Part shown: in pieces, positions 1-6,247 of the stretch
How positions within the stretch are numbered: position 1 is the first letter of the stretch
How the letters are laid out: each line of letters starts with the position of its first letter
Source: a virus
Reading direction: 5' to 3' (one strand)
Virus genome (UHGV): UHGV-1326493
DNA length: 11,306 nucleotides
Program-made: the position numbers and the translations under genes
The notes under the pieces: model-generated
Database searches by the model: none
The model's input: only the letters and a program-made list of their open reading frames with translations
What the model was told of the DNA's origin: nothing

Positions 1-362
1 GTATAAGGGACAGTTACTATGCTCAGGGTTTTTCATTGGCGTTGCTTGGCGAGCCTCTTTTTCAGAATAAGATGGAAGCTTGGATGCATGGCCCTGTTGT
101 CCCTGAGCTTTATCACCGTTATAAACAATATGGTAATGGTGCTATCCCTTCTCCAGAGTCTTTTGATGCTGAAAAATTCAGCGAAGAACAGTTAGAGCTA
201 TTAGAAGAAGTCTGGGATGTTTTTGGGCAATTTTCTGCCTGGAAACTGAGGAACATGACACACGAAGAGTCACCATGGAGATCAAACTATATTGAGGGTG
301 TTGGTGGTTCTGAAATTAGTTCTAAGGAGATGGCAGAGTACTTTGCAACTCGGATTAACTAA
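1..362 (+). CDS. Panacea (DUF4065)-domain protein, 5'-partial; gene starts upstream of the window
   Basis: The frame through nt 3-362 has no stop and reads ...IRDSYYAQGFSLALLGEPLFQNKMEAWMHGPVVPELYHRYKQYG..., matching the YYAQGW..LA..G.PLF...EAW..GPV.PELY signature I recall for DUF4065/Panacea (SocA/GepA-like) proteins. Stop TAA at 360-362. Track ORF 36..362 begins at a TTG internal to this frame. Confidence 0.7.
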   Translation, partial: IRDSYYAQGFSLALLGEPLFQNKMEAWMHGPVVPELYHRYKQYGNGAIPSPESFDAEKFSEEQLELLEEVWDVFGQFSAWKLRNMTHEESPWRSNYIEGVGGSEISSKEMAEYFATRIN

Positions 363-366
363 CGAG

Positions 367-786
367 ATGGCAAGAAAATCTAAAAGGATTATCCCCCCTG
401 CTGAATCTACAGGTAAGTTAAAGTTAGGGCCGCAGTCAGGGGGGAATTCAGATCAAAAGAAACCGAAATTTTCATTCTGTTACATCCAAAGCTCTCACTG
501 CATAACGAAATGCCAAAAAGATGAGAAAGCTGGCTTAGCTGATAAATTATACAGATTAAGTCAACTAACATGGGCAGATATTAAGCAGCAAGGTAGGCAT
601 AAGCTTGGATTTGAGAAGATTGCAAGGGGTGCAATTAAAGCAGGTATCCCCAGTCATATAACGGAAGACGTAGATCATTTCTTGGCTTTTAGATTTGATG
701 ATTTGAAAGCCATGGTTGGTTATCGTCTTGGATCGACATTTTTTGTTATATGGCTTGATAGAGAGTTCAACCTATACAAGCACTAA
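367..786 (+). CDS. hypothetical protein, 139 aa; coupled partner of the Panacea-domain gene, candidate toxin/effector
   Basis: First ATG (367) lies 4 nt after the upstream stop, with only a weak GAG upstream, so translational coupling is likely. Track ORF 292..786 starts at an overlapping TTG. Basic Pro/Gly-rich N-terminus (MARKSKRIIPPAESTGKLKLGPQSGG), then CYIQSSHCITKC, then a ~100-aa domain ending GYRLGSTFFVIWLDREFNLYKH. Stop TAA 784-786, followed directly by a terminator. Confidence 0.55.
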   Translation: MARKSKRIIPPAESTGKLKLGPQSGGNSDQKKPKFSFCYIQSSHCITKCQKDEKAGLADKLYRLSQLTWADIKQQGRHKLGFEKIARGAIKAGIPSHITEDVDHFLAFRFDDLKAMVGYRLGSTFFVIWLDREFNLYKH

Positions 787-790
787 TAAA

Positions 791-814
791 ACCCACCATC
801 AGGTGGGTTTTTTG
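791..814 (+). terminator. intrinsic terminator for the rightward two-gene unit
   Basis: ACCCACC (791-797) / loop ATCA / GGTGGGT (802-808) followed by a T-run through 813, directly after the stop at 784-786. The hairpin also encodes the last codons of mnt (KKPT) on the other strand. Confidence 0.6.
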
Positions 815-1050
815 TACAAATCCTTCAGCGTATCAAACACCATCTTCTTAACAAGTTCGGACTGCTCATCAGCGATGCGTTCCGCATCGTCTCGATAGCC
901 TGAAATTTTGGATTGCCTTGATACAGCATCAGTCACTATCTGAACTAATTCTGAATTAATAGAGCGGCCATTGGATTTGGCTCGCTGTTTTAGTTTTTCC
1001 TTTAATTCGTAAGGTAGCCGCAGATTAAATTGCGGGTCATCTCTTCCCAT
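799..1050 (-). CDS. mnt: Mnt-type ribbon-helix-helix repressor (P22 immI family), 83 aa
   Basis: MGRDDPQFNLRLPYELKEKLKQRAKSNGRSINSELVQIV...GYRDDAERIADEQSELVKKMVFDTLKDLYKKPT matches P22 Mnt as I recall it (ARDDPHFNFRMPMEVREKLKFRAEANGRSMNSELLQIV...DAERLADEQSELVKKMVFDTLKDLYKK). ATG is plus 'cat' at 1048-1050; AAGCGAGG upstream. Confidence 0.9.
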   Translation of the reverse strand: MGRDDPQFNLRLPYELKEKLKQRAKSNGRSINSELVQIVTDAVSRQSKISGYRDDAERIADEQSELVKKMVFDTLKDLYKKPT

Positions 1051-1128: not shown

Positions 1129-1475
1129 CTTTATTTGATTAATAATGCATCACTGCGGCCACGCTGCAGCGATTCCTTGTATCTGGAGCAAATTAAATGA
1201 CAGATATTATAAATAGGAATTGTTATTTAATAATATTTGAAAATGAAAATCATGGACGATAGGAATAAAAGTAGTACTTGTTATTTTTAAGTGACGCATT
1301 AAACGCATAAAGCATATGTCTGTTGATCAAGATTCTTGCTTGTTGTAAAATAATTGTTTTGTTCATGTTGCATAGTTTTAAAGTGAATAGAAGATTATTT
1401 TTCAAAACAATTGCATCTTTGTCTGCAGTCATTCCGTTTTCTTCAATATCTAAATTTTCAAACAGGATGACTAAT

Positions 1476-4208
1476 ATGCCTGATATAACTCCAAATGTTG
1501 TAATTGGGATGCCTTCTCAACTCTTCACTATGGCTCGTTCTTTTAAAGCCGTAGCTAATGGCAAAATTTATATCGGTAAAATTGACACTGACCCTGTAAA
1601 TCCTGAAAACCAGATTCAGGTTTATGTAGAGAATGAAGATGGTTCTCACGTTCCTGTTTCGCAACCAATCGTTATCAATGCTGCTGGATATCCTGTATAT
1701 AACGGACAGATTGCTAAATTCGTTACTGTGAAAGGACACTCTATGGCTGTGTACGATGCTTATGGTACGCAGCAGTTCTATTTTCCGAATGTGCTGAAGT
1801 ATGACCCGGATCAGTTACGGCAGCAATTAGAAGATCCTGATGGTGCTAAAAAATACCCTGAATTACAGATTGCACGATGGCGGGATGATAAAGACGTTCG
1901 CGGGTGGGGGGCGGATGACTCTGGGAATAGAGATTCAACACAGGCTTTTCTTGACGCCGCATCTAGCGCAGGAAATAGTGGTTTGGTTCATGTGCCTTCT
2001 GGTGAGTTTATAGTTGATGCATCGAAAATAGATATTTCACGCTTCTCCGGTGATGGTGTTCTAATCAGTAATGGTGTTCGCATTTCTGTTAATCCGCCGA
2101 TGCAAAGTTTCTCCATTGGACAAAGAAAACTTGCGACCCTGAATTTTGGTGATGATATCAATGCGCCAACTATATATGCGAATGCACAAAATGCATTGCA
2201 GGGAATAGCTTGTGTAAGGCATGAAGGTATTGAGAAGGTTTTTATCACTCAACAGGTTGGAGGTTCTAACTGGGGAACGGACACCCTCACAAGGATCAGT
2301 GAGTGGCACTATACAAGCGATGGTTCGACCCTTTCTGTTGTGACATTTACAGAGCCATTGCCTCTTGGTCACGGTTCAGATCTTTCTGCCACAATAGAGA
2401 ACGGTGAACTATATCTGTTTACAACAACAATTGCTGAGACTGGTTCCTCTCTAGGAGGGAAGGGGTATTCAAAGACAAAATGGAAAGGGGCATCAACATC
2501 TGCTGAAGATATAACTCATTACCGAGTATTTGGTGAGCCGGGTGATAATAATCTGATTAACCTTGCGCAGCGGGCAAGTATTTGTGTATCTAATGATGGG
2601 CGATATGTCATATTAATTGCGACATCAAACGCTGGGACTGGCCGCTTTTTATACGTATATGATCGCAAAGAAGTGGAATCTTCTTCTAACCCAATGAAAG
2701 TTAGACCGATTAATGGTCCTGTTCCACTTGTCCGTGGTAAAGGTCAGTATGGTGCAACGCTTCAGGGTATTACATCAGATAGCAGATATATTTACACAAT
2801 TTGGGGTGGCGTTCCTGCAAGATGCGTAAGGACAGTCCAGATTTATGATATGGGTGGTACGCTAATACGTTCGTTTCCTGTATCACTTGCCGCATCACTT
2901 TATACAGAGACTCAGTTAAATGGTTCTGACTCTAAAATCGGAGTTCCGGTTAGCTTTGAGCCTGAAGGGCTGGCAATAAGAGGTGATGAACTTGTCTGTG
3001 GTGCTATGGATGTATGGAAAAGCGCAGGGGATGTTGTAAGCCATCGTGGTAAAAATTGGGTAAGTACTGTTACTGGTGATAACAAGGGAAATCTTCCGAC
3101 AAACAGGTCTTATTGGTTAAAAACATCGCTTGCAGCGACAAATGGTGAATGGGATTCAGGTGCAACATATAAATCAGGCGATTATACTCGCAGAAATAAG
3201 CATCTGTTTGGAGTAGCAAACCTGTCTGATATTCTTGGCAACCATCCAGTGCATGGCGCAGAATCCGATCCGTATACCGGAACCGCGTATCAATATTATG
3301 CTGGAACTGATATCGCCTTTAACCGTGAGCACGGTTCATTTACTATTGCGATATTTGACGAAGCCATTGGAGAGTATACCAAATCCCTCGAGTTGAATTA
3401 TGGAAATAACCTTAACCTGTTTGATACAGATTACGGCCATGACAATAATTCATGGGTAAGTACGAAAGCAGTATTCGACTCAAACTTTCGAGGTATGCAG
3501 TTCCGTTCTAAAGATGGCAATACTGCGGGTGGTGCTTATATTGATATCCATGCTGCTGATTGTCCATCTGCGGCTGGTGAGTTGATACTTGCCTCTACAG
3601 ATGGAGGTGTCGTCAGACTTAAGCAGGGGAATGTAACAGTATTTTCTGCGACTAAAGATACTACATCGACATGGGCGACGACGACATTAAGGCCAACAAC
3701 TGATAACCAGGTATCACTTGGAAGGTCCGTTAACCGCTTTTCTCAGGTCTACGCAGGGACTGCAACTATAAATACATCTGATGCAACAGAGAAAACGGAA
3801 GTCAGAACTCTTTCCGATAAAGAGCAGGCGGTTGGGTTAGCTCTTGTTGATGAAATTGGTTTTTATCAATGGCTTGATAGTGTAAAAAATAAGGGAGCTG
3901 ATGCCAGACTTCATGCCGGACTTACGGTGCAACGGGCAATGGAAATATTCAGAGAGAATGGACTTGATCCATTTAAATACGGAGCGATCTGCTATGACAG
4001 ATGGGATGCATATACAGATACAGATCCTGCTGTTTATGATGATGAAGGTAACCTTGTTCGTGAGGCTATAACTATTACGCATGAAGCAGGAGAACGCTAT
4101 GCATTCAGAAACGATGAATTACAGTATCTAATGATTGCTGCATTAGGTATACGTCAGAAAAATATTATAAAGAGGATTGAAGAACTGGAAAATAAGTTAA
4201 AAAATTAA
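1476..4208 (+). CDS. tailspike protein: P22-type head-binding N-terminal domain, distinct receptor-binding body, C-terminal intramolecular-chaperone-like domain
   Basis: N-terminus [59 protein letters not shown]...[10 protein letters not shown]...NVLKYDPDQ parallels P22 gp9 (MTDITANVVV...[38 protein letters not shown]...). Start chosen at ATG 1476, with AGGA 8 nt upstream and alignment to gp9 Met1; ATG 1467 is an alternative. The track start at 1323 is a coincidental in-frame extension through AT-rich leader. Stop TAA 4206-4208. Confidence 0.9.
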
Positions 4209-4299
4209 CGGAGTTTAATTAGGTGGTTTGCTGGGAGGGTTGCTTATAATCCTCCACTTTTAATTTGATTGTTAGAATATTATCGCTAATAAAATTACT

Positions 4300-4605
4300 A
4301 TGCATAGTGGTATTTCTATGGACATTACACCAGTTCTTCACGCTCTTTATGCTATAGCTGCACAGACACTGTGTGGCATACTTACCGGGAACTGGGCTTA
4401 CGGGGCGATAGCCGGTTGTGCGTTCTTCATTGCTCGTGAACATACCCAGGCAGAATATCGCTGGATTGAAATGTTCGGGCATGGCAAGCGTATGAATATG
4501 CCGTGGTGGGGAGGGTTTGATCCACGCGTGTGGGATGTGGGAAGTCTGTTGGATTTTTCTTTCCCAATTATCGGATGCTTATTGGTATGGATTCTTGCAT
4601 CGTAG
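4300..4605 (+). CDS. hypothetical small membrane protein (about 95-101 aa, 2-3 predicted hydrophobic helices)
   Basis: ORF reads ...MDITPVLHALYAIAAQTLCGILTGNWAYGAIAGCAFFIAREHTQAEYRWIEMFGHGKRMNMPWWGGFDPRVWDVGSLLDFSFPIIGCLLVWILAS, with hydrophobic stretches at both ends. No convincing SD for ATG 4300 or ATG 4318. A TATAAT hexamer lies at 4245-4250. Sits between the tailspike and sib/attP. Confidence 0.45.
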   Translation: MHSGISMDITPVLHALYAIAAQTLCGILTGNWAYGAIAGCAFFIAREHTQAEYRWIEMFGHGKRMNMPWWGGFDPRVWDVGSLLDFSFPIIGCLLVWILAS

Positions 4606-4750: not shown

Positions 4751-4992
4751 CTGTTACAGGTCACTAATACCATCTAAGTAGTTGATTCATAGTGACTGCA
4801 CATGCTGTGTTTTGCAGTATTATGTAGTCTATTATTTAGACCAAAACCATCATAACACATTGATATTGATGATTTTTCTTGTTTCTCATTCAGCTTTTTT
4901 ATACTAAGTTGGCCTTATAAAAAAGCATTGCTTATCAATTTGTTGCAACGAACAGGTCACTATCAGTCAAAATAAAATCATTATTTGATTTC
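4751..4992. other. attP: complete lambda-type attP (P arm, 15-bp core, P' arm)
   Basis: Core GCTTTTTTATACTAA at 4893-4907 flanked by CA...GTTGG as in lambda attP. Arm-type Int sites are present: P arm CTGTTACAGGTCACTAATAC and TTCATAGTGACTGCA (4751-4800), P' arm ACAGGTCACTATCAGTCAAAATAAAATCATTAT (4952-4984). The P' arm overlaps the 3' end of int, as in lambda. Confidence 0.85.
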
Positions 4993-6051
4993 AATTTTGT
5001 CCCACTCCCTGCCTCTGTCATCACGATACTGTGATGCCATGGTGTCCGACTTATGCCCGAGAAGATGTTGAGCAAATTTATCGCTTATCTGCTTCTCATA
5101 GAGTCTTGCAGACAAACTGCGCAACTCGTGAAAGGTTGGCGGATCCCCTTCGAAGGAAAGACCTGATGCTTTTCGTGCGCGCATAAAATACCTTGATACT
5201 GTGCCGGATGAAAGCGGTTCACGACGAGTAGATGCAATTATGGTTTCTCCGCCAAGAATCTCTTTGCATTTACCAAGTGTTTCCTTCATTGATATCCCGA
5301 GAGCATCAACATGCAATGTTGTAGGGATGGCAATTTTTACGCCTGTTTTGCTTTGCTCGACATAAAGATATCCATCTACGATATCAGACCACTTCATTTC
5401 GCATAAATCACCAACTCTCTGCCCGGTAACAACAGCCAGTTCCATTGCAAGTCTGAGCCAACATGGTGATGATTCTGCTGCTTGATAAATTTTCAGGTAT
5501 TCGTCAGCCGTAAGTCTTGATCTCCTTACCTCTGATTTTGCTGCGCGAGTGGCAGCGACCGGGTTTGTTGTTATATGGCCTTCAGCTATTGCCTCTCGGA
5601 ATGCATCGCTCAGTGTTGATCTGATTAACTTGGCTGACGCCGCCTTGCCCTCGTCTATGTATCCATTGAGCATTGCTGCAATTTCTTTTGTGGTGATGTC
5701 TTCAAGTGGAGCATCAGGCAGACCCCTCCTTATTGCTTTAATTTTGCTCATGTAATTTATGAGTGTCTTCTGCTTGATTCCTCTGTTGGCGAGGATTTTT
5801 TCGTAGCGATCAAGCCATGAATGTAACGTAACAGAATTATCACTGTTGATTCTCGCTGTCAGAGGCTTGTGTTTGTGTCCTGAAAATAACTCAATGTTGG
5901 CCTGTATAGCTTCAGTGATTGCTATCCTCCTGTCTCGGCCTAATCCAAACTCTTTACCCGTCCTTGGGTCCCTGTAGCAGTAATATCCATTGTTTCTTAT
6001 ATAAAGATTAGGGGGTAAATCCCGGTGCTCATGACTTCGCCTTCTTCCCAT
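4981..6051 (-). CDS. int: tyrosine integrase, lambda Int type, 356 aa
   Basis: MGRRRSHEHRDLPPNLYIRNNGYYCYRDPRTGKEFGLGRDRRIAITEAIQANIELF...HELRSLSARLYEKQISDKFAQHLLGHKSDTMASQYRDDRGREWDKIEIK is near-identical to lambda Int as I recall it. R-x-x-R, H-x-x-R, H and the Y in ...MASQYRDD are intact. Overlaps xis by 23 nt. Confidence 0.97.
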   Translation of the reverse strand: MGRRRSHEHRDLPPNLYIRNNGYYCYRDPRTGKEFGLGRDRRIAITEAIQANIELFSGHKHKPLTARINSDNSVTLHSWLDRYEKILANRGIKQKTLINYMSKIKAIRRGLPDAPLEDITTKEIAAMLNGYIDEGKAASAKLIRSTLSDAFREAIAEGHITTNPVAATRAAKSEVRRSRLTADEYLKIYQAAESSPCWLRLAMELAVVTGQRVGDLCEMKWSDIVDGYLYVEQSKTGVKIAIPTTLHVDALGISMKETLGKCKEILGGETIIASTRREPLSSGTVSRYFMRARKASGLSFEGDPPTFHELRSLSARLYEKQISDKFAQHLLGHKSDTMASQYRDDRGREWDKIEIK

Positions 6052-6247
6052 TTTTGATCCTCTTCAAAAGGCTACCTGTTACTGGTCGATTTAAGTCAAC
6101 CTTTACCGCTGATTCGTGGAACAGATACTCTCTTCCATCCTTAACCGGAGGAGGGAATATCCTGCACTCGCGTACCCATCGACGAACTGTTTCAAGGCTT
6201 CTTGGGCGTCGCTGGCGTGCGTTCCACTCCTGAAGTGTCAAGTACAT
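6029..6247 (-). CDS. xis: excisionase, lambda Xis type, 72 aa
   Basis: MYLTLQEWNARQRRPRSLETVRRWVRECRIFPPPVKDGREYLFHESAVKVDLNRP...KKAKS matches lambda Xis. Has the characteristic overlap with the int start. Confidence 0.95.
   Translation of the reverse strand: MYLTLQEWNARQRRPRSLETVRRWVRECRIFPPPVKDGREYLFHESAVKVDLNRPVTGSLLKRIKNGKKAKS

What the first reader, a model, noticed from the sequence alone, without database searches (positions are those of the whole stretch)
1476..4208. Chimeric tailspike: P22 head-binding module fused to a different receptor-binding body
Roughly the first 110 residues track P22 gp9 closely; the similarity ends near KYDPDQ. What follows opens with [36 protein letters not shown], a signature typical of right-handed beta-helix depolymerases. 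The central region carries recurring hydrophobic-strand plus S-x-D-G/S motifs ([52 protein letters not shown]). I cannot assign specificity (O-antigen, capsule or other) from sequence alone. This is a host-range determinant with an unassigned enzymatic domain.
Basis: partly seen in the sequence, partly recalled or inferred. Interest (0 to 1): 0.65.

Follow-up and report, generated by a model that had tools for sequence, protein, structure and literature searches.

The report
Capsule-targeting propeller tailspike of P22-like phage
This gene is a modular phage tailspike whose host-recognition part is not the usual beta-helix but a five-bladed propeller related to the teichoic-acid-binding proteins of Staphylococcus and Bacillus phages. 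Comparative genomics points to a rare glycerol-phosphate ("teichoic-acid-like") E. coli capsule, not the O antigen, as its receptor.

Summary
Window 1476-4208 (+) encodes a 910-aa tailspike. Residues 1-113 are a P22/Sf6 head-binding domain (PF09008, E=1.8e-65), and similarity to P22/Sf6 spikes stops at KYDPDQ.

The specificity can be inferred. Only 5 of 5,426 complete E. coli genomes carry this body (99% identity). They have four different O-antigen clusters (O7, O7, O4, O23, O11). All five share one rare group-2 capsule locus that encodes a glycerol-3-phosphate cytidylyltransferase-like enzyme and a TagF-type glycerophosphotransferase. They are the only five genomes with that locus. Two homologous propeller spikes (Gally-type, PGN829.1-type) likewise track a second glycerol-phosphate capsule locus, probably K24.

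Best reading: a capsule-specific tailspike for a teichoic-acid-like K antigen. Whether it only binds or also cleaves the capsule is open.

The parts
1150..4209 (+). Mobile tailspike cassette: upstream non-coding region plus the tailspike gene
   Evidence: 98.4-98.9% identical to prophages beside thrS in E. coli E4, EC24 and MS 16-3. Identity ends exactly at the stop codon, and the flanks differ.
1476..4208 (+). Tailspike CDS, 910 aa
   Evidence: ORF list and translation. RefSeq names 99%-identical copies 'phage tailspike protein'.
1476..1814 (+). Head-binding (virion attachment) domain, aa 1-113
   Evidence: PF09008 E=1.8e-65, full profile. Sf6 gp14 and P22 gp9 structures match aa 1-118.
1815..1913 (+). 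Linker, aa 114-146 ([33 protein letters not shown])
   Evidence: Identical in Gally-type spikes P0009/P0010, after which the sequences diverge. Helical in the model.
1902..2114 (+). Small alpha/beta domain carrying the 'pectate-lyase-3-like' N-cap motif, about aa 143-213
   Evidence: Weak profile matches to the N-termini of beta-helix enzymes over about 40 residues only. Model pLDDT is 75-92.
2115..3221 (+). Five-bladed beta-propeller receptor-binding domain, about aa 214-582
2199..2966 (+). Invariant pocket residues at the entry of the innermost strands: Q242 (2199-2201), H299 (2370-2372), K329 (2460-2462), Q430 (2763-2765), E495 (2958-2960), E497 (2964-2966)
   Evidence: Conserved in 131-144 of 157 rows (gaps make up nearly all the rest) of an alignment built from the 149 matching representative proteins. 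They are colinear with phi11 Gp45 M164-Q165, G208-H209-G210-T211, M329-Q330 and E385-A-E387-G. Q165, T211 and Q330 line the proposed GlcNAc cavity of Gp45 (PMC4901313).
3024..3116 (+). CBM5/12-like aromatic hairpin inside or after blade 5, aa 517-547
   Evidence: PF02839 sub-threshold match (19.5 bits against a 26.2 cut-off). W514, G525, P541 and W547 are conserved across the family.
3222..3662 (+). Post-propeller beta-rich region, aa 583-729, poorly modelled
   Evidence: Model pLDDT is 25-60. It is conserved within close homologues. Function unknown.
3663..3776 (+). Trimeric stalk segment preceding the cleavage site, aa 730-767
   Evidence: PF12219 End_tail_spike C-terminal part, E=1.2e-4 and below the curated cut-off. 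It aligns with the pre-chaperone stalks of 7y5s, T5 pb1 (4uw8) and endoNF (3gw6).
3777..4208 (+). Peptidase_S74 intramolecular chaperone, aa 768-910. Predicted self-cleavage at Ser768 (3777-3779) with Lys773 (3792-3794)
   Evidence: PF13884 E=1.9e-7. PDB sequence hits: 7y5s E=1e-34, T5 pb1 E=1e-31, endoNF chaperone 3gw6 E=3e-16, GA-1 3gud E=9e-16. The S-D-x-x-x-K motif is invariant in homologues.

Best explanation
The gene encodes the tailspike of a temperate P22-like E. coli phage, assembled from exchangeable modules. They are, in order: a P22/Sf6 head-binding domain that plugs into the tail; a short linker and cap domain; a five-bladed beta-propeller that recognises the host; a stalk; and a C-terminal S74 chaperone that helps the trimer fold and then probably cuts itself off at Ser768. 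The propeller is homologous to the 'platform' domain of phi11 Gp45-type receptor-binding proteins, which bind wall teichoic acid. The proposed receptor is a rare group-2 (kps) capsule built with CDP-glycerol, a glycerol-phosphate, teichoic-acid-like K antigen. It is not the O antigen. The ligand most likely sits in the central pocket lined by Q242, H299, Q430, E495 and E497. Shown: the domain architecture, the fold, the homology, and the genomic co-occurrence with the capsule locus. Inferred: that the capsule is the receptor, the pocket location, and self-cleavage. Open, roughly even odds: whether the propeller only binds the capsule or also depolymerises it.
Against: No experiment links any member of this Gram-negative branch to a receptor (literature searches). 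The association rests on five genomes in four lineages for this exact spike. The window's own host is unknown. Four Gally-type lysogens are not among the 60 listed capsule genomes (one capsule record was unlisted). The K serotype of the capsule locus could not be named, and its polymer structure is inferred from gene content only. The HMM and hhalign similarity to Gp45 is weak on its own (hhalign E=0.06).
Confidence: 0.68

Rival explanations
1. Classical O-antigen-specific tailspike, binding or cleaving one O polysaccharide as P22, Sf6 and HK620 spikes do.
For: It sits in the gene-9 position of a P22-like genome with a P22-type head-binding domain. Most characterised spikes of this phage group target O antigen (established knowledge; PMC10408124).
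Against: The five lysogens with a 99%-identical body carry four different O-antigen gene clusters. The body has no similarity to any O-antigen endoglycosidase fold.
Confidence: 0.07
2. The propeller binds some other widely conserved surface structure (enterobacterial common antigen, LPS core, colanic acid or a protein), and the capsule co-occurrence is indirect. For example, the capsule may merely be permissive, or both may mark a shared niche.
For: All five hosts also have intact colanic acid clusters. Propeller RBPs in Klebsiella phages have been linked to broad capsule-type ranges (PMC12491483).
Against: A conserved receptor predicts lysogens scattered over many capsule types. Instead the overlap is exact for a locus present in 0.09% of genomes, and the same pattern repeats for two homologous spikes with a second glycerol-phosphate locus.
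Confidence: 0.12
3. The body is a right-handed beta-helix depolymerase.
For: The aa 143-180 motif resembles the N-terminal cap of pectate-lyase-like beta-helix enzymes. One homologue (P0011) has a precomputed PF12708 hit.
Confidence: 0.02
4. The propeller is an enzyme, not only a lectin. It would be a metal-dependent glycosidase or phosphodiesterase that depolymerises the glycerol-phosphate capsule using H299, E495 and E497. This is a sub-hypothesis of the best explanation.
Against: The closest solved relatives (phi11, 80alpha, P68 RBPs) are described as binding proteins with no reported catalysis, yet they keep the same H/Q/E-x-E residues. No catalytic-residue superposition could be computed.
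Confidence: 0.35

Closest known systems
Endosialidase tailspike of the K1 prophage CUS-3 (P22-like)
   Same: P22-type head-binding domain, a beta-propeller receptor domain, and a C-terminal S74 chaperone. It is capsule-specific rather than O-antigen-specific. The five lysogens (not the window) have an acyltransferase gene next to the spike. The N- and C-terminal modules align, 39% of the query in two pieces (H10).
   Different: CUS-3 has a six-bladed GH58 sialidase propeller (Pfam PF12217/PF12218/PF12195), which is absent here. Its target is polysialic acid.
Staphylococcal phage receptor-binding proteins phi11 Gp45, 80alpha gp61 and P68 gp17 (PDB 5efv, 6v8i, 6iab)
   Different: They have a coiled-coil stem instead of a P22 head-binding domain, C-terminal tower domains, and no S74 chaperone. 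They are baseplate components of Gram-positive phages. Sequence identity is only about 10-20%.
Bacillus phage GA-1 gp12 neck appendage precursor
   Same: It is the only characterised-phage protein aligning over nearly the whole body and chaperone (28% identity, aa 153-890). It is the best BFVD structural match (E=1e-38). Its S74 domain has a solved structure (3gud).
   Different: Different N-terminal anchor and a Gram-positive host. The receptor of GA-1 gp12 is itself not established.
Tailspikes of E. coli prophages Gally (LF82) and vB_EcoP-683R2; RBP1 of N4-like phage PGN829.1
   Same: Same propeller family (44.5-45% and 33% identity). Gally and 683R2 share the same head-binding domain and linker. 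The Gally-type and PGN829.1-type propellers are found in lysogens with a glycerol-phosphate-type kps locus; 683R2 was not surveyed.
   Different: Gally (799 aa) lacks the S74 chaperone and ends in a different C-terminus. It associates with a different capsule locus, probably K24. None of these has been characterised experimentally.
P22 gp9 and Sf6 gp14 endorhamnosidase tailspikes
   Same: Head-binding domain (aa 1-113) and genomic position downstream of mnt.
   Different: Their bodies are right-handed beta-helices that cleave O antigen. There is no similarity after KYDPDQ.

Membership tests
P22-like tailspike (gp9 family, by virion attachment) | N-terminal head-binding domain PF09008 | tested here: met
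   E=1.8e-65, profile positions 1-113 of 113. Matches to Sf6 and P22 structures.
P22-like tailspike (gp9 family, by virion attachment) | Gene lies in a P22-like late/immI context | tested here: met
   Mnt/Arc repressor immediately upstream, int/xis downstream. In lysogens the gene follows P22 gp16/gp20-type ejection protein genes.
Right-handed beta-helix depolymerase (pectate-lyase-like) | Parallel beta-helix body (Pfam Beta_helix or Pectate_lyase_3 over the body; helix fold in the model) | tested here: not met
   No such Pfam hit. Only a 40-residue N-cap resemblance. The model and fold searches give a five-bladed propeller.
Peptidase S74 intramolecular chaperone (endosialidase/T5 pb1 type) | C-terminal PF13884 domain | tested here: met
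   E=1.9e-7, above the curated cut-off. Strong PDB sequence matches.
Peptidase S74 intramolecular chaperone (endosialidase/T5 pb1 type) | Ser-Lys catalytic dyad, S-D-x-x-x-K, at the cleavage site | tested here: met
   Ser768 and Lys773 (NTSDATEK) are invariant in the aligned homologues.
Peptidase S74 intramolecular chaperone (endosialidase/T5 pb1 type) | Autoproteolytic release after trimer folding | not testable with these tools
   Needs expression with SDS-PAGE or mass spectrometry.
phi11 Gp45-type propeller receptor-binding proteins | Five-bladed beta-propeller platform fold | tested here: met
phi11 Gp45-type propeller receptor-binding proteins | Sequence homology, including the cavity residues Q165, T211 and Q330 | tested here: met
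   Family HMM scores 19.9 bits against a best of 12.6 in 2,000 shuffles. Q242, S301 and Q430 align to Q165, T211 and Q330. hhalign alone is weak (E=0.06).
phi11 Gp45-type propeller receptor-binding proteins | Coiled-coil stem and C-terminal tower domains; baseplate attachment | tested here: not met
   The N-terminus is PF09008 and the C-terminus is a stalk plus S74. It is a relative of the domain, not of the whole protein.
phi11 Gp45-type propeller receptor-binding proteins | Binds a polyol-phosphate polymer (teichoic acid) | not testable with these tools
   Indirect support only: exclusive co-occurrence with kps loci encoding PF04464 glycerophosphotransferases.
Endosialidase (GH58) | Pfam PF12217/PF12218/PF12195 catalytic propeller and beta-barrel | tested here: not met
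   Absent. Only the last 38 residues of PF12219 (stalk) match, below cut-off.
Five-bladed propeller glycoside hydrolases (GH43/32/62/68/130) | Family-specific catalytic acidic residues in the central funnel | tested here: inconclusive

The most novel reading that the evidence does not exclude
The propeller family is an ancient polyol-phosphate-polymer recognition module shared by phages of Gram-positive and Gram-negative bacteria. In Staphylococcus and Bacillus phages it reads wall teichoic acid. In E. coli it has been grafted onto P22-type spikes to attack teichoic-acid-like K capsules. In the E. coli branch the invariant H299/E495/E497 centre would make it a new kind of capsule depolymerase, a propeller 'teichoicase' or phosphodiesterase.
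Probability: 0.25. Interest if true: 0.85.

Novelty: new variant of a known kind. Interest (0 to 1): 0.62.

Why it matters
Tailspikes decide which strains a phage can infect, and almost all well-understood ones in P22-like phages are beta-helix enzymes against O antigen. Here the receptor module has a different fold, one known so far from phages of Gram-positive bacteria. A concrete, testable receptor can be proposed from genome data alone: a rare glycerol-phosphate capsule. If confirmed, this would have four consequences.

- It would give the first receptor assignment for a large, uncharacterised propeller RBP family. The profile search (which also spans the linker and C-terminal chaperone) found more than 1,000 sequence clusters at E<1e-30.
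- It would explain why such RBPs ignore O-serogroup boundaries (PMC10408124).
- It would provide a reagent for typing or stripping a poorly studied class of E. coli K antigens.
- It would link teichoic-acid recognition across the Gram divide.

Tried and rejected
- **Word-index homologue searches.** Searches with the body and with its alignment returned only about 10 true body homologues. The exhaustive profile search was needed to show that the family is large.
- **Sequence search of the PDB.** Neither the protein nor the profile found a solved propeller relative by sequence. Only the N- and C-terminal modules and the N-cap motif matched.
- **NCBIfam.** No model matches the spike.
- **O-antigen hypothesis.** I first expected the five lysogens to share an O serogroup. 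E4 and EC24 are both O7, but MS 16-3 (O4), GMF065 (O23) and TUM10008 (O11) refuted this. A search with O7 wzy found 97 genomes and was uninformative.
- **Naming the capsule serotype.** Literature searches failed for the window-type locus. K24 for the LF82-type locus rests on my own knowledge that strain A0 34/86 is O83:K24:H31.
- **Characterised Gram-negative member.** Literature searches found none.
- **hhalign of the 10-sequence alignment against Gp45.** Not significant by itself. A broader HMM with a shuffle control was used instead.
- **PGN829.1 RBP versus the Gally spike.** I checked whether they are the same. They are not, at 46% identity.
- The second structure prediction and a trimer model were not run.

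Full report
**Setting.** The window is a stretch of a temperate P22-like E. coli phage that spans the phage attachment region. In order it holds:
- a SocA/Panacea-domain ORF (36-362);
- an Mnt/Arc repressor gene (799-1050, minus strand);
- the tailspike gene (1476-4208, plus strand);
- about 770 bp with a small membrane-protein ORF;
- a lambda-type integrase (4981-6051, minus) and excisionase (6029-6247, minus);
- Ea22-like genes and ssb.

Most of the flanks are 86-98% identical to many lambdoid and P22-like E. coli prophages.

**Checking the observation.** The ORF, its coordinates and every quoted motif are real. The ATG at 1476 is the likely start. It aligns with the first residue of Sf6 gp14 and P22 gp9 and has an AGGA 9 nt upstream. 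Residues 1-113 are a complete Head_binding domain (PF09008, E=1.8e-65). They are nearly identical to Sf6 gp14 (7sg7) and clearly related to P22 gp9. All these alignments end just after KYDPDQ. The 'chimeric' observation is therefore confirmed. One refinement: the next 33 residues, up to DVRGWGA, are shared with another group of spikes (Gally-type). The modular junction for this group lies near residue 146.

**What the body is.** Pfam finds no beta-helix family. Apart from the N-terminal domain it reports a Peptidase_S74 chaperone (aa 768-829, E=1.9e-7), a sub-threshold piece of the endosialidase stalk (aa 730-767) and a sub-threshold CBM5/12-like hairpin (aa 517-547). PHROGs places aa 1-725 in phrog_16355 (unknown function) and aa 121-907 in phrog_1171 ('tail spike protein').

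An AlphaFold2 model of aa 115-770 was built on 10 homologues. Mean pLDDT is 69.8, with 75-94 over aa 135-585. It shows a small alpha/beta domain followed by five blades of four antiparallel strands. The fold searches agree:
- The five best Foldseek PDB hits are all Staphylococcus phage receptor-binding proteins: phi11, NF5, P68 and 80alpha.
- Against predicted viral structures the best hit is Bacillus phage GA-1 gp12 (E=1e-38). tblastn also aligns GA-1 gp12 at 28% identity over aa 153-890.

The resemblance covers only about 40 residues. The 'S-x-D-G' motifs are turns between propeller strands.

**Homology with the teichoic-acid-binding platform.** An exhaustive profile search shows the body belongs to a large, diverse family, with more than 1,000 clusters at E<1e-30. 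An HMM built from 149 representatives scores phi11 Gp45 at 19.9 bits, against a maximum of 12.6 bits among 2,000 shuffled copies. Four motifs are colinear between the two proteins:

| This tailspike | phi11 Gp45 |
|---|---|
| L-Q242-G | M164-Q165 |
| G-H299-G-S | G-H209-G-T211 |
| L-Q430-G | M329-Q330 |
| F-E495-P-E497-G | E385-A-E387-G |

 In the Gp45 crystal structure, Q165, T211 and Q330 line the cavity proposed to hold the GlcNAc of wall teichoic acid (PMC4901313). In this family Q242, H299, K329, Q430, E495 and E497 are essentially invariant. They sit at the entry of the innermost strands of blades 1, 2, 4 and 5, as deduced from the model's strand positions. That is the usual ligand or active-site location in five-bladed propellers.

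**C-terminal module.** Residues 723-905 match the intramolecular chaperones of a phage tail fibre (7y5s), T5 pb1 (4uw8), endosialidase NF (3gw6) and GA-1 gp12 (3gud). The Ser-Lys dyad is present as S768-D-A-T-E-K773 and is invariant in homologues. By analogy with those proteins, the domain should drive trimer folding and then cleave itself off. This step is inferred.

**Which receptor?** The exact body (99% DNA identity) occurs in only 5 of 5,426 complete E. coli genomes: E4, EC24, MS 16-3, GMF065 and TUM10008. I read their O-antigen clusters from the RefSeq annotation. They are O7, O7, O4, O23 and O11, so an O-serogroup-specific receptor is unlikely.

Their group-2 capsule loci tell a different story. 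All five have the same region 2:
- a 131-aa cytidylyltransferase-like protein (TagD-like);
- a PF04464 CDP-glycerol glycerophosphotransferase;
- a 701-aa PF05159 protein;
- a GT8 glycosyltransferase.

A search of all genomes with that 4.9-kb region returns exactly five genomes with at least 80% coverage (99.9-100% identity), and they are the same five. E4 and EC24 are one lineage. The others differ from them and from each other by 1.3-3% in housekeeping DNA. The capsule locus lies about 1.3 Mb from the prophage. The pairing therefore arose in at least four lineages. If placement were random, the chance that the two sets of five coincide is about 3e-17. That figure ignores relatedness, which reduces the sample to four independent cases but does not change the conclusion.

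**Replication in relatives.** The Gally-type spike (44.5% identical, same propeller family) is a prophage spike of strain LF82. LF82's kps region 2 also starts with the TagD-like gene and contains a PF04464 glycerophosphotransferase, plus a GT29-like transferase. That spike is in 44 genomes and that capsule region in 61. Forty of the 44 are among the 60 listed capsule genomes (Fisher p about 6e-81, again uncorrected for clonality). The same region is 100% identical in strain A0 34/86, which I know as O83:K24:H31, so this locus is probably K24. K24 contains alpha-Kdo (PMC12887879).

A third family member, the PGN829.1-type propeller (33% identical), is in two complete genomes, both within the K24-type set. 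Pas et al. had noted that near-identical copies of this RBP occur in prophages of several O serogroups, and they suspected a non-O-antigen receptor (PMC10408124).

**Cassette behaviour and a neighbour.** Identity between the window and the thrS-adjacent prophages of the lysogens runs from 1150 (or 777 in EC24) to 4209 and stops at the stop codon. The spike gene therefore moves as a cassette between different P22-like backbones. In all five lysogens, and in no other genome, a 236-aa hexapeptide-repeat acyltransferase gene follows the spike. It is absent from the window. This recalls the polysialic-acid O-acetyltransferase gene next to the endosialidase gene of the K1 prophage CUS-3 (own knowledge). 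It suggests lysogenic conversion of the capsule.

**Mechanism and its limits.** The best-supported reading has three parts. The spike attaches to the tail by its P22-type N-terminus. It recognises a glycerol-phosphate, teichoic-acid-like capsule through the propeller pocket. It matures by S74 self-cleavage.

Whether it also degrades the capsule is unresolved. Invariant His and Glu residues, and the need of a short-tailed phage to cross a capsule, argue for catalysis. Against catalysis, the closest solved relatives are described only as binding proteins yet keep the same residues.

No member of the Gram-negative branch has been characterised in the literature I could search. The capsule's K type and chemical structure are not established here.

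**Verdict.** The gene is a new variant of a known kind, the capsule-specific tailspike of a P22-like prophage, of which CUS-3 is the prototype. It has an unexpected receptor-binding fold and a specific, testable receptor prediction.

Noticed in passing
window 36-362 (+) and 292-786 (+): An ORF with a SocA/Panacea antitoxin domain (PF13274, E=5.5e-18), probably truncated by the window start. It overlaps a following 164-aa ORF with no family match. This may be a Panacea-type toxin-antitoxin pair in the immI region upstream of mnt.
   Followed up: partly
window 4300-4605 (+): A 101-aa predicted membrane protein lies between the tailspike and attP, where P22-like phages often carry surface-conversion genes. 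It has no Pfam or NCBIfam match. Similar DNA (80-92% identity) occurs as 'hypothetical protein' in about 2,400 E. coli genomes.
   Followed up: partly
L010 9535-10245 (-), and the same position in L001 and L011 (lysogens, not the window): A 236-aa hexapeptide-repeat acyltransferase gene sits directly downstream of the spike in all five lysogens and in no other complete E. coli genome. It is a candidate capsule O-acetyltransferase for lysogenic conversion, analogous to neuO of CUS-3.
   Followed up: partly
window 1150-4209 compared with L001, L010, L011: Near-identity to the thrS-adjacent prophages ends exactly at the tailspike stop codon. The window phage has a different integration module (HK022/HK106-like int and attP from about 4630). 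The same spike cassette therefore sits in different backbones.
   Followed up: yes
L010 (E. coli EC24 prophage): The EC24 prophage is heavily deleted: ssb and rad52 abut truncated tail and ejection genes. It still keeps an intact spike and acyltransferase, which may mean these two genes are retained for the host's benefit.
   Followed up: no
L016 16528-17511 (E. coli LF82 kps locus): A gene annotated 'phage baseplate protein' and an IS256-like element lie inside the LF82 capsule locus, between region 2 and region 1.
   Followed up: no
window 3024-3116 (aa 517-547): A sub-threshold CBM5/12-like aromatic hairpin (W514, G525, P541, W547 conserved family-wide) is embedded in or after blade 5 of the propeller. 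It may be a secondary carbohydrate-binding element.
   Followed up: partly
(genomes WCHEC4533, WCHEC96200, WCHEC000837, WW2): Four genomes carry the Gally-type spike but are not among the 60 listed genomes with the LF82-type capsule region (one record was unlisted). They may have lost or altered the capsule locus after lysogeny.
   Followed up: no
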